Origin: an uncultured bacterium
Lineage (GTDB): Bacteria; Patescibacteriota; JACMRA01
Assembly (NCBI GenBank): GCA_963784355.1
Contig: CAWAQU010000009.1
Span: 92,682-156,681, forward strand
DNA: 64,000 nt
Reading direction: 5' to 3'
Shown here: piece after piece, positions 25,931-32,521 of the stretch
Layout: each line of letters starts with the position of its first letter
Numbering within the stretch: position 1 is the first letter of the stretch
Made by a program: the position numbers and the translations under genes
Notes under the pieces: model-generated
Databases searched by the model: none
Seen by the model: only the letters and a program-made list of their open reading frames with translations
Told to the model about the DNA's origin: nothing

Positions 25931-26422
25931 CTACTTTTTTCTTCCAATTCTTGCTGCAAGGTGAGCAAAAGCTTTGTTACCTGCTGCTGTCTGGTGCACT
26001 GAGTTTCTCTTTGCTACAGCAGGACCCTCTCCTTTATATGATTCAATCAGGATTTGCTTTAACTTTTGACTCATTGGTCTACCTTTGATATTTCGGGCAG
26101 AATTCACGATCCAAGTCAAGCCTAATCTAAGAGATCTAGCAGGATAAGGCTCCATAGGAACTTGATAACTTGCACCACCGACTCTCATACTTTTTACCTC
26201 TACCTGTGGTCTCACATTATCAATTGCAGTTTCGATAACTTCTAAAGGAGCTACTTGTAATTCTACGCTAGCTTCAGTTATAGCATCTATTACGATTCTG
26301 TTTGCGACAGTTTTTTTGCCATCCCACATCAAACGATTGATTAATCTGGAAATCAAAGCACTACCGAAGGTTTTATCAGGTAAAATAGTAGGTCGTTTTA
26401 GAACTCTTTTGCGTCTTGCCAT
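25931..26422 (-). CDS. rpsG: 30S ribosomal protein S7
   Basis: LINRLMWDGKK, VEVKSMRVGGASYQVP, NKAFAH. Confidence 0.97.
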   Translation of the reverse strand: MARRKRVLKRPTILPDKTFGSALISRLINRLMWDGKKTVANRIVIDAITEASVELQVAPLEVIETAIDNVRPQVEVKSMRVGGASYQVPMEPYPARSLRLGLTWIVNSARNIKGRPMSQKLKQILIESYKGEGPAVAKRNSVHQTAAGNKAFAHLAARIGRKK

Positions 26423-26568
26423 ATAATGAATGTATAATAGTATAAAATAATCTGATTATTTGCAGAATGTCAAGTTAAATTGTTTTAGAGTAGGCATAAA
26501 AATGAGTTTACAATTAAAGATTAGCTACAAAACTTTTTAGAGTATGTATTTGAATCAGTGGAAAATAA

Positions 26569-27720
26569 CTAATTTACGGCGAAAGTCACTAGTTTATTTG
26601 GAATGACTTTGTGAAATTTAATATCTTTCCCTTCGAGCCACTTGCTCACTGCCTCTTTAGCTTTTTCAATGACTAAATTTTCCTCAGAATCTGTATCAAT
26701 TTCAAATGTACCTCTCAATTTACCGTTTACCTGGACTGCTATGGTGACCACCTCGTCTAAAACTAAAAGAGGATCGTAGATATGCCAACTAGTTAAATGG
26801 ATTGATTTAGTATGATCGTTTTGATCAAAATTGTGATGCTTGTACCATAACTCTTCAGTGATATGAGGTGTAAAAGGGGCTAAAATTTGTAAGTATCCTG
26901 TCCAGATACTGCCCGGAATTATTTCTTGATCCTTTAAAATATTGTTGAAAGTCATTATTTCAGCTACTGCAACATTATTTTTTTGCAGTTCAAGGTGCTC
27001 AGTAATCTTTTTCACTGTTTTATGGTAGCTTGATAGTAACTTTTTATCTATATTGGTTATTGTCTTATCTACCTTAGACTCTAACCTAAATAAACCATCA
27101 ATTAGTTTTTTACAGGCTATTAAACCACCTTCTTGCCAGGATACTGTAGCTTCGTATGGTCCAATAAAATTTACATACAATCTTAGAGCATCTGCTCCTA
27201 CAGTATTTAATTTTTCATCAGGACTGATTACATTCCCTTTAGATTTGCTCATTTTACTACCGTCGCTAGCTAGCAATATTCCTCCATTAGTTCTTTTATT
27301 GTAAGGCTCGGAAGTAGGCACGTGGCCTAATTTATGTAGAGCTTTGTGCCAAAAACGAGAATACAGAAGGTGAAGAGTTGTATGTTCACTGCCACCGAAA
27401 TAGTGATCAACCGGTAGCCAATATTTCAAATTTTCTTGGGAAGCAAATTCCTGACTATTTTTTGGATCAGTATAACGCAGATAGTACCAGCTAGAACCTG
27501 CCCAGTTTGGCATAGTATCAGCTTCTCTTCTTCCTATAATTTCACCCTTTTCATCTCTTACATTTATCCAGTCCGATTTTATTAGTGGAGAGCGACCATC
27601 TTTAGAAGGCTCAAAATCTTGCACATCAGGCAATTCTAAAGGCAATTCCTCCTTACCTAGTAATCTAATTTCATATTCCTCTCCGTCAATAATGGTTTTT
27701 TTAGGTACTCCGTTGTCCAT
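26569..27720 (-). CDS. leuS: Leucyl-tRNA synthetase, C-terminal subunit (KMSKS half, anticodon-binding and C-terminal domains)
   Basis: ELPLELP, DTMPNWAGSSWYYLRY, HLLYSRFW, KMSKSKGN, VQVNGKLRG; start ATG 27720 or TTG 27738; TTGACT at 27756-27761 (minus). Confidence 0.92.
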   Translation of the reverse strand: MDNGVPKKTIIDGEEYEIRLLGKEELPLELPDVQDFEPSKDGRSPLIKSDWINVRDEKGEIIGRREADTMPNWAGSSWYYLRYTDPKNSQEFASQENLKYWLPVDHYFGGSEHTTLHLLYSRFWHKALHKLGHVPTSEPYNKRTNGGILLASDGSKMSKSKGNVISPDEKLNTVGADALRLYVNFIGPYEATVSWQEGGLIACKKLIDGLFRLESKVDKTITNIDKKLLSSYHKTVKKITEHLELQKNNVAVAEIMTFNNILKDQEIIPGSIWTGYLQILAPFTPHITEELWYKHHNFDQNDHTKSIHLTSWHIYDPLLVLDEVVTIAVQVNGKLRGTFEIDTDSEENLVIEKAKEAVSKWLEGKDIKFHKVIPNKLVTFAVN

Positions 27721-27768
27721 AATAATGGTATAAATCAAGTATTTATTTTTAATTCAGTCAAATCGTGG

Positions 27769-28347
27769 TTAAAGTTTAGATTTTCCAGTTAAGTGTTCCA
27801 GTAACTTAGGAAACTCTTCTTGATTAAAATGTCCTTTGGCATCAAAAAAATTAGTTTTGGCTAGAGGTAAGCTACTTTTGTATTTTACCGCATCCTGGAA
27901 ATCCACCACAAAATCGTCTTTGGAATGCCAAATAAAAATCTCATTGCAATTTTGTGAGAGTATGTTAAAGTTTTTAACTTGTTTAAATTTGCCGCAGGTT
28001 TCATATGGTGCAGCAATTAAATGTAATTCAGAAATTTTGAGCTTAACTTCGCTCAGATATTTAGCTAAAAATATTCCTCCCAGACTATGTCCAATTAAAA
28101 TATCACTTGGTTTAAGGCTAGAAGCAATTTTATCAAAAACTATTTTCCACTCCCGATACTGAGCATTTTGCTTGTTTGGCATATTAGGTAATAGTACCTC
28201 GAAATTTTTTTCTTGAAGTTTGGGGACTGCTGATAATTTCCAGTCTGAACGCTTAGTAAATTTGGGTTCGATAGAATTTAAGTAGGCGAGGTAGTCCTTA
28301 TAGGAATTAAAGCTGTCACCACCGTGGATTATAACAATTTTGGTCAT
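27769..28347 (-). CDS. RBBP9/YdeN-family alpha/beta hydrolase
   Basis: IIHGG, GHSLG, HSKDD, GHF catalytic elements. Confidence 0.88.
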   Translation of the reverse strand: MTKIVIIHGGDSFNSYKDYLAYLNSIEPKFTKRSDWKLSAVPKLQEKNFEVLLPNMPNKQNAQYREWKIVFDKIASSLKPSDILIGHSLGGIFLAKYLSEVKLKISELHLIAAPYETCGKFKQVKNFNILSQNCNEIFIWHSKDDFVVDFQDAVKYKSSLPLAKTNFFDAKGHFNQEEFPKLLEHLTGKSKL

Positions 28348-28632
28348 AAATAGATTGTAAATTGGTTTATGGAATTAGGATTAATTGATGCTAACAGGTA
28401 AGAAATTAAAAATCAAGACTGAATTCAAAAAAGCAAAAATCTGTTGAGTCGAATCATTTAATTTAACTTTAGCCCTATTTTATATAGCGATTTAGTTAGA
28501 TTGAGCAGCTATAAAGCTAAAATATTGTACTTAAGTAAAGTAACTATATATCATAATCTCTTAAAATATATCTTGACATATCTCGAAAATTATGGTAAGA
28601 GTTTAATAATACCCAAATTTAATACAATTTTT

Positions 28633-29001
28633 ATGTCTTTCGAAAAACATCTAAATCAGCCCACAAAAAAAACTGCGGAAACAGCAAAAAGTATTGATTA
28701 TGCAAATTACGTAACAGTTTTAGGCTCTGCTTTATTAACTCTAGGACTAACCGCACAACCAAGCATTGCTCCCGGCTTTGCACCTGAGCTACCAGCGAAT
28801 TTAGTTAGTCAGGGTAAAAAACAACAACCTGCTCCAAAAACAGAGCGACCTAAAGACCAATCTCCTCATAGGGGTTTTGGAAGGAGAGAGCTATATCCAA
28901 AACAAGATTTAGAATCAACTTTGACAGCTGTCAATCCGTCTACAGGAGAAAAGAATGTTATCGAGCTTAATGCTCCTAAGCAATTTCCTACTGCTGCATA
29001 A
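28633..29001 (+). CDS. Small putatively secreted protein with a PatX-like PHRGxGRRE motif
   Basis: TTGACA 28573 promoter, ATG 28633, signal-like LGSALLTLGLTAQPSIA, P/K/Q-rich linker, PHRGFGRRE at 28864-28890, downstream terminator. Confidence 0.6.
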   Translation: MSFEKHLNQPTKKTAETAKSIDYANYVTVLGSALLTLGLTAQPSIAPGFAPELPANLVSQGKKQQPAPKTERPKDQSPHRGFGRRELYPKQDLESTLTAVNPSTGEKNVIELNAPKQFPTAA

Positions 29002-29030
29002 ATCAATTTTTGTTAATAGCGCTAAAATTA

Positions 29031-29058
29031 TCTGCTCTAACCGGGGCAGGTTTTTTTT
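29031..29058 (+). terminator. Intrinsic terminator between convergent genes
   Basis: CTGCTCT-aacc-GGGGCAG followed by T8. Confidence 0.65.
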
Positions 29059-29068
29059 ATGAGATCTA

Positions 29069-32000
29069 TTACAAACTCTTCTTTATATATTCTACCGGAA
29101 ATGGTTCTCCCCAATATCTTTGTCTTGAAAATACCCAGTCTCTAAATTTATAATTGATTTGCTTATTGCCTCTACCTAAATTAATTAATTTTTGAGCAAT
29201 TTTTCCTCTGGCCTCTTCTGATCTCAACCCGTTAAATTCAGCAGAATTGTATAAAATTCCGTCACCAGTCACTGGTTTGTAGCTAAACGTTTGAATATTG
29301 TTTGTGGTATCTAAATTTAGAGTAATTGCTTGATTTATAGCTCTGCGAAAAATTTCAAATTGATGAGGATTGTTTTCCTGATTTAACTTTTGTAAAATTA
29401 TTTCAGCAGTTTCCCAACCAAAATTAAAGGCTTCATGGCTTTCGAGTTGAGTTTCACCTTCGGAGTTAGAGTCTGCAATTACCAAAAATGGATAAGTAAG
29501 AGCAAACCTATTAATTTTTTTCAGGCTATTGTAATAATGTGCATAAACAGGGCCGCCAAGCGGAATAACTTCAGAAATCTCTTGCAAACCAGTCTCTTCA
29601 ATGACTTCTCTTTCTGCTGCTTTATTTATTTCCTCACCTTCTTTAATTCCTCCTCCGACCATGATAAATTTATCATCTTCATGTTTCTGCAAATAGCCGT
29701 ATTTTTGTGTGCTAGGGTCAAAAACGACTGCACAAATTCCCTCCACAAAAGTTTCATTTTCGGCAGCTTTACCAAATTCAGGTGCGATGACTTCTTTTAA
29801 AGGAACATCATACTTTTTAGCCATTTCATTATCTCTTTCATCGTGAGCATTAGCCATAACCGCACCAGTGCCATATCCGGGTAATACAAAATCGGAGATC
29901 CATACAGGTAATTTTGCACCGGTCAAAGGATGATAGACGTAACCACCGGTAAAAGCACCTGTTTTTTCTTTATCAATTTGCCTGTCCAGCTCACTTTTAT
30001 TTTTAGTCTTTTCGATGTAGTCTTCTACAATCTGTTTCTGAGCTCTTGTAGTGATTTTTGATACTAAAGGATGTTCTGGAGCCAGTACCAAAAAAGTTGT
30101 GGAGTATATAGTGTCCACTCTGGTTGTGAAAGTCTGAATAGTATTTGCCTCAGCATCTTCTATTTTGCCTAAAGCCCACAAAGCCTGCTCTGTTGCATGC
30201 TCTTTTATATATTCCGGGCCAGCTAAAAAGCACTCAATATCTTTTTCAATACCAGGTTTTCTCTGATTCCAATTTTCCAGTGAGCATTCAAAATAGTAAA
30301 AATGGTCTAGTTTGTGAATAATTCCTGTTTTATTAGGATTCCAATTGTAAAAACCATGTGAAGTACCCAAATATTTTTTAAATTCCAATCCAGTCAATCC
30401 GACCTCTTCTTCAGTTTCGCGGATAGCGGCAGCCAAGCCATCCTCTCCCGGATCAATGTGGCCACCCGGAAACCGTACTCTTAAATCACCCCGTACTTTT
30501 TTATCGTAAATTACAAACTGGCCTGTTTCCTTTATTTTAATAACTGCAATTCCACGCTCACCTTGAGAAATGTTGAAATCAATGTCACCAATTTTTTCAG
30601 CAAAACTAGGGTATAAATTTTGAGTCATTTTACTCATGACCTTTGTTGTGTTTTCATTCCACAGTAGTTCCTTGGCTTCAGCAAAACTTACCCATTTATA
30701 CTCATCGTGTTCCCAATTTAGGGTAGGCTGCTTGTCTGTAAAAGCGTAAAAATTGAAAGCTCTGATTACATTTCCTTTTGGTGAGGTAAAACCCCAGGAA
30801 TAAGTATAATTTAGATTAGTTACACTAATTCCTGTCTCTTCAAAAACTTCTCTTTGCGTACCTGAAATTATATCTTCACCTTTATCAATCGAACCCCCTG
30901 CCAAATCCCATAATCCAGCCCCGTCATCTTCTTGAGAGCGTTTCATAATCAGTACTTGTTGATCTGAGTTAATCAAAAAACAAGAACCGTAGACTTTATT
31001 TAATTTATCCAGATCTTTTATTTTCTCGGAAAATTCGGTCGCTAACAGAGCCTTTGAACATTTTTGAAACACGTGTTTGACTACGTCTTTGTGGTCCTCC
31101 CAATTTAACAATTCAAGAGTTTCTGCATAATTTACCCATTTATACTCACTATGTTCACTACTTACTTTGACCTCATCATTTGCTTGAGTAAAAAAATAGA
31201 CATTGCCAATTTCTTTATTTGAACTGTGATGTAGAAAGCTGTGGGAATACAAAAGCTCAATATTTTCTACCTCTAGGCCTGTTTCCTCTAAAACTTCCCT
31301 TTTAGCCTCAGCAAAAATATCCTGAAAATCATCAATTCCACCACCCGGTAACTCCCAGACATTTGGTGAACTATCACTACTACTACGCTTCAATACTAAA
31401 ACCTGATTTTGCTTATTTAGTACCACCGTAGTTGTCTTGGCTTTTTCAAATTCCGTGGCATCAATTATATGCTCCGGTGCAATTTTCCAATCTACAACCA
31501 CTCCTTCACTTTTACCGATCCAATTGCGTTGCATGTCTTTAATGTGTTCCGGAAAGTTGGTTTCATCCAGCCCCGCAAGTAATTCTTCAGCGTATTCAGG
31601 CATTTTCAAAATCCACTGCATCATTTTCTTTTTTTCTACAGGATGTTCGCCACGCTCACTCACTTTTTGCCCATTAATTTCGATAATTTCTTCATTAGAT
31701 AGTACAGTTCCCAATTTTTCACACCACCAAAGCTCAACTTCTTTTTGTTCAGCTAGCCCCGCTTTATAAAGCTCTGTGAAAATCCATTGAGTCCATTTGT
31801 AATATTCAGGATCGGTTGTAGCAAACTCTCTATTCCAGTCAAAACCAAAGCCGAATCCGTTAAATATATCACGAAAATTATCAATATTTTGTTTGTTTAC
31901 TATTTTGGGATTAATCCCTGTTTTTCTGGCGTATTCTTCAGTAGGCAAACCAAAAGCATCCCAACCCATAGGAAAAAGTACATTGTATCCCCTCATTCTC

Positions 32001-32209
32001 AAAAATCTGCTGTAAACATCAGGTATGGTATAACGGAAAAAATGCCCCATATGCAGGCTGGCACCGGAAGGAAAAGGAAATTCCATTAGAATATATTTCT
32101 TCTCTTTAGTTGAGTCATTATCCACGGCAGCGTAGATATTATTTTTATACCACAAATTTTGCCACTTTTTTTCGATATCAGAATACGGATTGGAGGAATT
32201 GTTTTCCAT
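29069..32209 (-). CDS. leuS: Leucyl-tRNA synthetase, N-terminal subunit with four inserted Nudix domains
   Basis: FPFPSGASLHMGH (HIGH), GWDAFGLP, MQRNWIGKSEG, FTTRVDT, GTGAVM..HDERD, RDWVFSRQRYWGEPFP then TAA TAG; four Nudix boxes. Confidence 0.93.
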   Translation of the reverse strand: MENNSSNPYSDIEKKWQNLWYKNNIYAAVDNDSTKEKKYILMEFPFPSGASLHMGHFFRYTIPDVYSRFLRMRGYNVLFPMGWDAFGLPTEEYARKTGINPKIVNKQNIDNFRDIFNGFGFGFDWNREFATTDPEYYKWTQWIFTELYKAGLAEQKEVELWWCEKLGTVLSNEEIIEINGQKVSERGEHPVEKKKMMQWILKMPEYAEELLAGLDETNFPEHIKDMQRNWIGKSEGVVVDWKIAPEHIIDATEFEKAKTTTVVLNKQNQVLVLKRSSSDSSPNVWELPGGGIDDFQDIFAEAKREVLEETGLEVENIELLYSHSFLHHSSNKEIGNVYFFTQANDEVKVSSEHSEYKWVNYAETLELLNWEDHKDVVKHVFQKCSKALLATEFSEKIKDLDKLNKVYGSCFLINSDQQVLIMKRSQEDDGAGLWDLAGGSIDKGEDIISGTQREVFEETGISVTNLNYTYSWGFTSPKGNVIRAFNFYAFTDKQPTLNWEHDEYKWVSFAEAKELLWNENTTKVMSKMTQNLYPSFAEKIGDIDFNISQGERGIAVIKIKETGQFVIYDKKVRGDLRVRFPGGHIDPGEDGLAAAIRETEEEVGLTGLEFKKYLGTSHGFYNWNPNKTGIIHKLDHFYYFECSLENWNQRKPGIEKDIECFLAGPEYIKEHATEQALWALGKIEDAEANTIQTFTTRVDTIYSTTFLVLAPEHPLVSKITTRAQKQIVEDYIEKTKNKSELDRQIDKEKTGAFTGGYVYHPLTGAKLPVWISDFVLPGYGTGAVMANAHDERDNEMAKKYDVPLKEVIAPEFGKAAENETFVEGICAVVFDPSTQKYGYLQKHEDDKFIMVGGGIKEGEEINKAAEREVIEETGLQEISEVIPLGGPVYAHYYNSLKKINRFALTYPFLVIADSNSEGETQLESHEAFNFGWETAEIILQKLNQENNPHQFEIFRRAINQAITLNLDTTNNIQTFSYKPVTGDGILYNSAEFNGLRSEEARGKIAQKLINLGRGNKQINYKFRDWVFSRQRYWGEPFPVEYIKKSL

Positions 32210-32521
32210 AATAAATGATTAATTTAGCTAAAAATCAGCGATTATTCCAAGAATGTCAACATTTAGACCGCAATTTTGCCACTAACTAAAATATTGTTTG
32301 TGGTTAGCCTTTGGATTTTGAATTAAGCTTGTATTTTTCGGCTGTTATAAGACTTGTCAAAGACTATTACGTAGCTTCGGCGTATATTGCAAATGCTTAA
32401 TTTTAAACTTAAATTAAAAATATTACTACCTCCTCTTTTTTAGGGGTTTTGCTTTTGTATACTAGGATTTAAACCTAAATTTGCCAAAGTTCATATTTTA
32501 TCTAAAACTTTAGTGAATTAA

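What the first reader, a model, noticed from the sequence alone, without database searches (positions are those of the whole stretch)
26569..32209. LeuRS split into two separately expressed genes at an unusual point
Seen: the N-half (HMGH motif, CP1) stops with TAA TAG just after RQRYWGEPFP. Two unrelated genes (about 1.35 kb, one on the opposite strand) follow, then the C-half resumes at ELPLELP with its own ATG and a TTGACT box. A point error cannot produce this layout. HIGH and KMSKS, the two halves of the Rossmann fold, are therefore on different polypeptides. Known: Aquifex alpha/beta LeuRS is split, but later, at the leucine-specific domain. Inference: an independently evolved heterodimeric LeuRS.
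Basis: partly seen in the sequence, partly recalled or inferred. Interest (0 to 1): 0.72.

Follow-up and report, generated by a model that had tools for sequence, protein, structure and literature searches.

The report
LeuRS split into two genes
An uncultured ultra-small bacterium encodes its essential leucine-charging enzyme as two separate genes, cut at a surface loop, with a small hydrolase gene lodged between them: a natural case of a core translation enzyme assembled from loose parts.

Summary
On the minus strand, a 1046-aa LeuRS N-half (29069..32209) carries HMGH, CP1 and four Nudix inserts. It ends 8 residues after RQRYWGEPFP with TAA TAG. A 383-aa C-half (26569..27720) with KMSKS, the anticodon-binding domain and the C-terminal domain starts 1348 nt downstream in another frame.

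No other leuS was found in the 81%-complete genome. The same-genus genome has the same break with different cargo. Both halves show saturated synonymous change but dN of about 0.27. In the family, 4 of 26 genomes are split at this point, 16 are fused and 6 are undetermined. Two of the split genomes also have CP1 as a separate gene.

The break falls in a low-confidence loop. At that loop, relatives carry in-frame HAD or PF06821 serine-hydrolase domains. So the gene lying between the halves is not unrelated: it is a free-standing PF06821 hydrolase, in frame with the C-half behind two stops.

A complex model of the halves scored 0.92 against a best control of 0.18. That is expected for the pieces of a known fold.

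The best reading is an independently evolved two-subunit LeuRS, made by fission at a module-insertion loop. I found no description in the papers searched. This scan had already noted the sister genome's split (e1-3052779).

The parts
29069..32209 (-). LeuRS N-half gene (1046 aa). It holds the first half of the Rossmann fold, CP1 editing domain, four Nudix inserts and the return segment ending RQRYWGEPFP-VEYIKKSL. The stop is TAA, followed by TAG at 29066-29068.
   Evidence: TIGR00396 538.5 bits, profile 5-446.
32042..32053 (-). HMGH (HIGH signature), N-half residues 53-56.
   Evidence: H53, G55 and H56 are nearly invariant in alignment A2.
29762..30157 (-). Core of the CP1 editing domain (Pfam PF13603, N-half residues 685-816). 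It includes TTRVDT (695-700) and HDERD (789-793).
31274..31342 (-). Nudix box 1 (residues 290-312). Gln stands in place of the first Glu of the box.
   Evidence: for the box; for the domains (NUDIX, 4 stretches, 210 bits).
30827..30895 (-). Nudix box 2 (residues 439-461), canonical.
30395..30463 (-). Nudix box 3 (residues 583-605), canonical. This insert is shared with G001, G003, G007 and G016.
29585..29653 (-). Nudix box 4 (residues 853-875), canonical. It lies inside the distal part of CP1 and is seen only in this genome among the rows aligned.
29072..29125 (-). Break point, N side: RQRYWGEPFP (29096-29125) plus the 8-residue tail VEYIKKSL.
   Evidence: The tail aligns with strand 446-450 of the fused G014 model.
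29030..29051 (+). Terminator-like hairpin with a T-run, just after the 166-aa ORF and 18 nt from the N-half stop. An A-run on the other side makes it possibly two-way.
   Evidence: Terminator-like sites as a class are at chance level (4 found, 3.6 expected).
28501..29001 (+). Orphan 166-aa ORF on the opposite strand (possible ATG start at 28633). It is not shown to be a gene.
   Evidence: no homologue in 26 relatives; no usable Atlas hit.
27769..28347 (-). Free-standing 192-aa alpha/beta serine hydrolase (PF06821 type, GHSLGG at residues 84-89).
   Evidence: PF06821 28.8 bits, cut-off 22.
27721..27768 (-). 48-nt spacer. The hydrolase and the C-half share one reading frame, interrupted by the hydrolase stop TAA (27769-27771) and a TGA (27754-27756).
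26569..27720 (-). LeuRS C-half gene (383 aa from ATG; alternative TTG start at 27738). It holds the second half of the Rossmann fold, the anticodon-binding domain and the C-terminal domain.
   Evidence: (TIGR00396 300.4 bits, profile 437-842).
27628..27648 (-). ELPLELP, the first conserved segment after the break (C-half residues 25-31).
   Evidence: Residue 22 aligns with T. thermophilus LeuRS residue 448.
27241..27255 (-). KMSKS signature, C-half residues 156-160. It is preceded by LASDG, with no leucine-specific domain.

Best explanation
This is a real, inherited gene fission. The only LeuRS of this Patescibacteria genome is made as two polypeptides. The N-half supplies the HIGH half of the Rossmann fold and the CP1 editing domain, which here carries four Nudix inserts. 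The C-half supplies the KMSKS half of the fold, the anticodon-binding bundle and the C-terminal tRNA-binding domain. They are expected to assemble without a covalent link into one active enzyme. In the assembled enzyme the 8-residue tail of the N-half (a beta-strand in the fused relative) would lie against the two strands at the head of the C-half. The cut lies in a variable surface loop. In relatives that loop hosts in-frame HAD or PF06821 serine-hydrolase domains. The most likely origin is a LeuRS with such a hydrolase inserted at the loop. It first broke between the N-part and the insert, as in G008 and G013, where the hydrolase is still fused to the C-half. In this genome it then broke again between the hydrolase and the C-half. 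Shown here: the gene layout, its conservation, the selection on both halves and the site of the break. Inferred: assembly of the halves, enzyme activity, the order of the events and separate transcription.
For: Layout.
Single leuS locus: this genome, G001.
Same break in the same-genus genome G001: the N-half is 625 aa and ends GEPFP plus 13 residues. An FMN-reductase gene lies between the halves, and the C-half is 388 aa.
Selection, G000 against G001: the N-half (613 codons) has pS 0.82 and dN 0.27. The C-half (383 codons) has pS 0.82 and dN 0.26.
Tree of the C-part (23 rows, 359 columns): G000, P0002, G001 and P0003 form a clade with support 99/98. The G000 end branch is 0.23 against a median of 0.51.
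Motifs: HMGH, KMSKS, TTRVDT and HDERD are all present.
Family tally: 4 genomes split at this point, 16 fused and 6 undetermined, of 26.
Free-standing CP1 proteins: 18 database clusters, all ending 4-32 residues after the same motif.
A further N-half-type protein, P0121 (923 aa, 57% identity), ends 8 residues after the motif.
The loop as an insertion site: G016 has a HAD domain of about 240 aa there. G006 and G025 have a homologue of the window's hydrolase in frame there. G008 and G013 have it fused to the C-part.
The window's hydrolase is in frame with the C-half behind two stops.
Fused G014 model (mean pLDDT 92): strand 446-450, then a loop at 451-460 (block pLDDT 70), then strands 461-464 and 467-473.
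Complex model: score 0.92 in three runs, best of 3 controls 0.18. This mark was reached by 58 of 80 solved complexes and 2 of 110 mismatched pairs. The runs agree in at least 96% of contacts, and the partner pLDDT is at least 87. The interface includes N-half residues 1027-1044 and C-half residues 9-30.
Against: There is no biochemical or expression evidence.
The genome is 81% complete, so a second leuS in the missing part cannot be excluded.
The complex model was made with my own alignments and with the N-half cut into two chains. These are the pieces of a fold solved as a single chain, so the pass may come from likeness to known structures and does not show binding.
No independent read or contig bridges either junction in this genome.
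The window's hydrolase is only 26-36% identical to the LeuRS-embedded ones. Its closest relatives (37-48% identity) sit in AlaRS and ValRS-like proteins of other genomes. Descent from a LeuRS insert is therefore plausible but not shown.
G001 carries a different gene in the gap.
Sharing a frame with the C-half has a 1-in-3 chance.
Confidence: 0.8

Rival explanations
1. The two halves are decaying remnants of a dead leuS. Leucylation is supplied by another gene in the unassembled part of the genome, or by a host.
For: The genome is only 81% complete. These bacteria have reduced genomes.
Against: Both frames are intact over 1046 and 383 codons. All signature motifs are present. Synonymous sites are saturated while dN is 0.26-0.27 against a species that has the same split. 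The branch is not lengthened. No second leuS was found in G000, G001 or G008.
Confidence: 0.04
2. Assembly artefact: a chimeric contig, or foreign DNA wrongly inserted into a normal leuS.
For: The window comes from a metagenome-type assembly. The single public run that holds the stretch has only short contigs, and none crosses a junction.
Against: The break recurs at the same residue position in an independent species (G001) and in G008 and G013. It also recurs in database proteins from other sources (P0002, P0003, P0006, P0121). Each half has its own stop or start and its own short terminal extension. The halves are in different frames.
Confidence: 0.02
3. The halves are rejoined after transcription or translation, by a split intein, an intron, or ribosomal bypass, into one chain.
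For: Split inteins and introns are known in other essential genes (general knowledge).
Against: Pfam finds no intein or Hint domain in either half. Only 8 residues follow the conserved motif, and only about 24 residues precede ELPLELP. No Rfam family, introns included, matched 26300..32500 at E up to 1. The gap holds a gene and 60 stops in the N-half frame.
Confidence: 0.02
4. Same two-subunit enzyme, different origin. The gene was cut directly when foreign DNA (a gene cassette) inserted into the loop-coding region. On this view the hydrolase is later cargo and never was an in-frame LeuRS domain.
For: G000 and G001 hold different genes in the gap, a hydrolase plus an orphan ORF against an FMN reductase. 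The orphan ORF has no relatives. The window's hydrolase is closer to copies embedded in other synthetases than to the LeuRS-embedded ones.
Against: Homologous hydrolases occupy this same loop in frame in G006 and G025, and are fused to the C-part in G008 and G013. The window's hydrolase lies 48 nt upstream of the C-half and in its frame. No repeats, recombinase or mobile-element genes were looked for or seen in the gap.
Confidence: 0.25

Closest known systems
Aquifex aeolicus alpha-beta LeuRS (Xu et al. 2002 and Ma et al. 2006, as cited in PMC2377443 and PMC3643597; I read passages of those two papers only)
   Same: A bacterial-type LeuRS encoded by two genes and working as a heterodimer. The catalytic-start part and the tRNA-binding part are on separate chains.
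   Different: Aquifex is cut inside its very large leucine-specific domain, next to KMSKS. Here that domain is absent (LASDG before KMSKS). The cut lies about 130 residues earlier, right after the CP1 return segment, so the whole second half of the Rossmann fold sits on the C-half. It is a different lineage: the split arose within a Patescibacteria family whose other members are mostly fused.
Mycoplasma mobile LeuRS (PDB 3ZIU)
   Same: Best solved match to the C-half (E 1.1e-66). A tetrapeptide stands in place of the leucine-specific domain (PMC3643597 passages).
   Different: It is a single chain and lacks CP1. The window's enzyme keeps CP1 and adds four Nudix domains.
Mosaic Patescibacteria LeuRS with in-frame hydrolase modules
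   Same: Same family of enzymes and the same loop. HAD or PF06821 hydrolase sits exactly where the window's gene is cut. Nudix and Ham1 modules sit at the CP1 entry.
   Different: Those are single polypeptides. Here the chain is broken, and the hydrolase is a separate gene.
Three-piece LeuRS of G008 and G013 and their database relatives
   Same: Same break after GEPFP-x-EY. A PF06821 hydrolase is associated with the C-part.
   Different: There CP1 is also a separate gene of about 200 aa. In G008 the N-terminal 246-aa piece is a third gene, on another contig. The hydrolase is still fused to the C-half.
Artificially split class I synthetases that reassemble from fragments
   Same: These show that class I synthetases cut in or near the connective polypeptides can assemble from fragments.
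   Different: They are laboratory constructs. This is a natural, conserved case.

Membership tests
Bacterial-type leucine--tRNA ligase (NCBIfam TIGR00396 leuS_bact) | Full-length match to the family profile | tested here: met
   The N-half covers profile 5-446 (538.5 bits) and the C-half covers 437-842 (300.4 bits). Neither alone reaches the 548.4-bit cut-off; together they cover the profile end to end.
Bacterial-type leucine--tRNA ligase (NCBIfam TIGR00396 leuS_bact) | Single polypeptide | tested here: not met
   There are two ORFs in different frames, 1348 nt apart, with a gene between them.
Bacterial-type leucine--tRNA ligase (NCBIfam TIGR00396 leuS_bact) | Class I signatures HIGH and KMSKS, and CP1 editing motifs (the Thr-rich segment and the conserved Asp) | tested here: met
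   HMGH is at N 53-56, KMSKS at C 156-160, TTRVDT at N 695-700 and HDERD at N 789-793. PF13603 matches at E 4.3e-50. Which residues are catalytic is recalled, not tested.
Bacterial-type leucine--tRNA ligase (NCBIfam TIGR00396 leuS_bact) | Leucylation of tRNA-Leu | not testable with these tools
   This needs an enzyme assay.
Aquifex-type alpha-beta LeuRS | Two genes that together make one LeuRS | tested here: met
Aquifex-type alpha-beta LeuRS | Break inside the leucine-specific domain | tested here: not met
   No leucine-specific domain is present: the alignment to T. thermophilus jumps from residue 593 to 636. The break is 155 residues before KMSKS. The Aquifex site is taken from PMC3643597.
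Aquifex-type alpha-beta LeuRS | Stable heterodimer | tested here: inconclusive
   Only a model is available: score 0.92 against a best control of 0.18. A pass is expected for the pieces of a known fold.
Split-intein or intron-interrupted gene | Intein (Hint) halves at the break, or a structured intron RNA | tested here: not met
   No such Pfam family is found in either half. The terminal extensions are 8 and about 24 residues. No Rfam match.
PF06821 Ser_hydrolase (YdeN/RBBP9 type), for the gene between the halves | Pfam match above the gathering score | tested here: met
   28.8 bits against a cut-off of 22, E 1.4e-6.
PF06821 Ser_hydrolase (YdeN/RBBP9 type), for the gene between the halves | Ser-Asp-His triad | tested here: inconclusive
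   GHSLGG (84-89), KDD (143-145) and KGHF (171-174) are present. I assigned them to the triad by eye, not from a structure.
Nudix hydrolase (PF00293), for the four inserts of the N-half | Nudix fold match and Nudix box G-x5-E-x7-REUxEExGU | tested here: met
   There are 4 stretches totalling 210 bits. The box is canonical in 3 of 4; the first has Gln for the first Glu.

The most novel reading that the evidence does not exclude
In this lineage LeuRS may be a multi-subunit holoenzyme built from detachable parts: Rossmann half 1, CP1, Rossmann half 2 with the tRNA-binding domains, and accessory hydrolases. The same modules occur fused, inserted, or as separate genes in sister species. On this reading the free-standing PF06821 hydrolase of the window still docks at the broken loop as a third subunit and acts on a LeuRS product or by-product, for example a mis-acylated ester or an adenylate. 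That would make a naturally dissected class I synthetase with an added clean-up activity.
Probability: 0.3. Interest if true: 0.8.

Novelty: new variant of a known kind. Interest (0 to 1): 0.62.

Why it matters
Only one natural two-subunit LeuRS is discussed in the papers I read: Aquifex, called unique in PMC2377443. This lineage gives a second, independent case, cut at a different place. Here the HIGH half and the KMSKS half of the active-site fold are on different proteins. Sister species offer fused, two-piece and three-piece versions of the same enzyme, the three-piece form having a free-standing editing domain.

That is a ready-made natural series for asking three questions. How do class I synthetases fold and assemble from modules? 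How are the two signature motifs coupled across domains? That second question is now studied with engineered 'urzymes' (PMC10450160, listing only). And how does domain insertion lead to gene fission?

The finding also matters for annotation. Pipelines name these halves 'class I tRNA ligase family protein', and completeness checks may count leuS as broken.

Tried and rejected
Metagenome scan with the C-half. The patterns chosen hit a widely conserved segment. All 79 loci were distant (33-63% identity), and the two closest were cut at contig ends.

Sequencing runs. No RNA holder was listed. One DNA run held a small share (0.19). Its short, identical contigs cover 27182-27345 and 27932-28673, plus three short stretches inside the N-half (30908-31087, 31415-31517, 31509-31544). 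None bridges either junction, and the run may be the source sample.

Promoter and terminator scan.

Rfam over 26300..32500: nothing found.

Screening the phylum by open-frame length. It covered 401 genomes, but only about 150 matches were listed. The short frames I fetched were not true splits: G192, G307 and G399 are adjacent pieces in shifted frames, G315 is one frame with a part missing, and G095 is at a contig end. This screen also misses splits in which the C-part is fused to other domains, as in G008 and G013. The frequency of splits across the phylum is therefore not established.

G004. The N-piece and the rest lie on two contigs whose ends overlap, with a frame change. I left it as undetermined.

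Remnants of the G016 HAD domain or the G001 FMN reductase in the window's gap: none found.

The 166-aa ORF. It has no family above threshold, no homologue in 26 relatives and no usable Atlas hit. Whether it is a gene is left open.

Alternative genetic code. Reading TGA as sense adds almost nothing: 42 against 41 long frames. TAA and TAG are the usual stops.

Earlier notes by place for this genome: none.

Literature. No paper in the held library describes a LeuRS split at this site, or a split LeuRS in Patescibacteria. Subscription journals and supplementary files were not searchable.

Full report
WHAT IS THERE.
On the minus strand of the window, an ORF of 1046 codons (29069..32209) encodes the front of a bacterial-type leucyl-tRNA synthetase. 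It ends RQRYWGEPFP-VEYIKKSL, followed by TAA and then TAG. A second ORF (26569..27738 from TTG) encodes the rest of the enzyme. It more probably starts at ATG 27720 and gives 383 aa, the length of the database entry P0001. The NCBIfam leuS model covers positions 5-446 on the first protein and 437-842 on the second. HMGH lies on the first protein (residues 53-56) and KMSKS on the second (residues 156-160). The gap is 1348 nt. The halves are in different frames, and the N-half frame runs into 60 stops before the C-half.

The gap holds two ORFs. One is a 192-aa alpha/beta serine hydrolase gene on the same strand (27769..28347; PF06821 28.8 bits against a cut-off of 22). The other is a 166-aa ORF on the opposite strand with no family. 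What it left out is that the N-half is so long because four Nudix domains are inserted in and around CP1. Three of the four Nudix boxes are canonical.

IS IT REAL AND IS IT THE ONLY LEUS?
The window's genome (1.14 Mb, 13 contigs, 81% complete) has no other leuS. The remaining matches to the leuS model are two long class I synthetases of 1224 and 1117 aa. The same-genus genome G001 has the same arrangement. Its N-half is 625 aa and ends GEPFP plus 13 residues. The gap is 1584 nt and holds an FMN-reductase gene (PF03358). The C-half is 388 aa. G001 too has no second leuS.

Stand-alone C-halves with their own start codons exist in the protein database. They are P0002, P0003 and P0006, at 71, 70 and 60% identity, from sources labelled ENA, JGI and Logan. 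In the representative library, P0121 (923 aa, 57% identity) ends 8 residues after the same motif.

Between G000 and G001, synonymous sites are saturated (pS 0.82) in both halves. The non-synonymous distance is 0.27 for the N-half and 0.26 for the C-half. In a tree of the C-part (23 rows, 359 columns), G000, P0002, G001 and P0003 form a clade with support 99/98. The end branch of G000 is 0.23 against a median of 0.51.

These results argue against both an artefact and decay. Read-level confirmation failed: only one public run holds part of the stretch, and none of its short contigs crosses a junction.

WHERE THE CUT LIES.
Aligned with the fused enzymes of the family, the N-half stops in a variable stretch and the C-half starts in it. 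That stretch lies between the conserved GEPFP-(F/V)EY segment and a Y-x-I-x-LL segment that precedes ELPLELP.

I modelled the fused LeuRS of G014 (834 aa, mean pLDDT 92, pTM 0.88). In that model these segments are strand 446-450, a loop at 451-460 with block pLDDT 70, and strands 461-464 and 467-473. So the cut is in a loop. The N-half keeps the first strand and the C-half keeps the next two. C-half residue 22 aligns with residue 448 of T. thermophilus LeuRS.

The enzyme has no leucine-specific domain: LASDG precedes KMSKS. Its best solved relative is the M. mobile enzyme 3ZIU, which has a tetrapeptide at that place (PMC3643597 passages). The Aquifex alpha-beta LeuRS is split inside its large leucine-specific domain. 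The two splits therefore cannot be the same event or the same site.

HOW WIDE IS THE SPLIT?
I matched the first 250 residues and the C-half to frames and contigs in all 26 genomes of the family.
- Sixteen genomes have both parts in one frame (G002, G003, G005, G006, G007, G009, G011, G014-G018, G020-G023).
- Four are split at this point (G000, G001, G008, G013).
- Six cannot be judged because of contig ends or missing parts (G004, G010, G012, G019, G024, G402).

G008 goes further. A 246-aa frame ends at the CP1 entry. A 213-aa frame holds CP1 alone and ends GDPFPFEY plus 5 residues. A 972-aa frame holds the hydrolase plus the C-half. The three lie on three contigs. G013 has the same CP1 piece and the same hydrolase-C-half piece; its first piece was not found in an 86%-complete assembly.

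A database search with the G008 CP1 piece found 18 clusters of 195-281 aa at 48-93% identity (P0271-P0288). Every one starts just before TFTTR-x-DT and ends 4-32 residues after GEPFP-x-EY. Several lie on contigs of 10-104 kb.

On the tree, the 'split' label needs at least two changes. A phylum-wide screen by frame length was not informative.

THE GENE IN THE GAP IS NOT A STRANGER.
G016's 1590-aa LeuRS has a HAD domain of about 240 aa exactly in this loop. Homologues of the window's hydrolase lie in frame in the same loop of the LeuRS of G006 and G025. They are fused to the front of the C-part in G008 and G013. Database proteins P0040, P0141, P0200, P0224 and P0244 show the same in-frame hydrolase right after the motif. 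Pairwise, the window's hydrolase matches P0010, P0083 and P0040 at 26-29% identity (E 4e-12, 1e-15, 4e-10).

In the window, the hydrolase gene ends 48 nt before the C-half ATG and is in the same frame, separated by a TAA and a TGA. This fits a series:
- insert in frame (G006);
- N-part detached with the insert still fused to the C-half (G008, G013);
- all three parts separate (this window).

Against a simple descent, the window's copy is closer (37-48% identity) to copies embedded in an AlaRS and in ValRS-like proteins of other genomes. G001 also has a different gene in the gap. I therefore give the direct-insertion origin a quarter of the odds.

HOW IT MOST LIKELY WORKS.
The two proteins should form one enzyme. 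A model used the N-half core (residues 1-250 and 1000-1046, as two chains) with the whole C-half. It scored 0.92 in three runs, and the best of 3 controls was 0.18. That mark was reached by 58 of 80 solved complexes and 2 of 110 mismatched pairs. The runs agree in at least 96% of contacts, and the partner pLDDT is at least 87. There are 434-442 contacts, and the interface includes N-half 1027-1044 and C-half 9-30.

Because these are the pieces of a fold solved as a single chain, and because I used my own alignments, this pass shows likeness to LeuRS rather than binding. The calibration counts hold only roughly here.

Upstream of the C-half there is no Shine-Dalgarno sequence. None is present before the N-half, S7, tgt or the hydrolase either, so its leader looks like any other in this genome. 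Separate transcription is likely if the opposite-strand ORF and the hairpin at 29030-29051 are real, but it is not shown.

COMPARISON AND NOVELTY.
The closest known system is the Aquifex alpha-beta LeuRS. It is of the same kind but differs in site and lineage. None of the seven literature searches named under Tried and rejected returned a description of a LeuRS split here, of a free-standing LeuRS CP1 gene, or of split synthetases in Patescibacteria. Subscription journals and supplements were out of reach. The scan's own earlier notes report the sister genome's split and many mosaic LeuRS genes with Nudix, PF06821, Ham1 and HAD cassettes. My results agree with those notes and tie the two themes together: the cut is at a cassette site, and a cassette lies in the cut.

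VERDICT.
This is a genuine, conserved, independently evolved two-gene LeuRS, a new variant of a known kind. Enzyme assembly and activity remain to be shown.

Noticed in passing
window 29069-32209 (-): The N-half carries four Nudix domains: two before the insert shared with relatives, that shared one, and one inside the distal part of CP1. Three of the four have canonical Nudix boxes. Among the rows aligned, only this genome has four.
   Followed up: partly
L122 2567-3304 (-), L123 2569-3207 (-), L114 322-3237 (-) (genome G008); L124 2564-3181 (+), L115 3559-6000 (+) (G013): LeuRS in three genes on three contigs: a 246-aa N-terminal Rossmann piece, a CP1 editing domain of about 210 aa standing alone, and a hydrolase-plus-C-half protein that also holds Nudix and/or HAD inserts. 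Eighteen database clusters of such free-standing CP1 proteins were found.
   Followed up: partly
L116 1462-4401 (+) (G011); L117 1865-5455 (-) (G005); L118 576-3176, L119 1631-4150, L120 3-2762: The closest relatives of the window's hydrolase sit inside other synthetases. One is an AlaRS-like frame that also holds guanylate kinase and Ham1 domains. Another is a ValRS-like frame with HAD and Nudix domains. Three more are class I frames.
   Followed up: partly
L022 4613-9385 (-) (G016): A single 1590-aa LeuRS with two Nudix domains, a Ham1-like domain and a HAD domain inserted at three loops.
   Followed up: partly
window, starts of genes at 32209, 28347, 27720, 26422, 32522: None of the gene starts looked at has a Shine-Dalgarno sequence; the leaders are AT-rich. 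Of 41 long frames in the window, 24 end in TAA, 14 in TAG and 3 in TGA.
   Followed up: partly
window 28501-29001 (+): An orphan 166-aa ORF is convergent with the N-half and is followed by a hairpin with a T-run. It contains a hydrophobic stretch and has no relatives in 26 related genomes.
   Followed up: partly
L125 and L015 (G004 contigs C10 and C33): The LeuRS N-piece (287-aa frame) is followed in another frame by Nudix and Ham1-like sequence. That sequence overlaps the start of the contig carrying the rest of the gene. This could be a frameshift, a contig break or a further split at the CP1 entry; I could not tell which.
   Followed up: no
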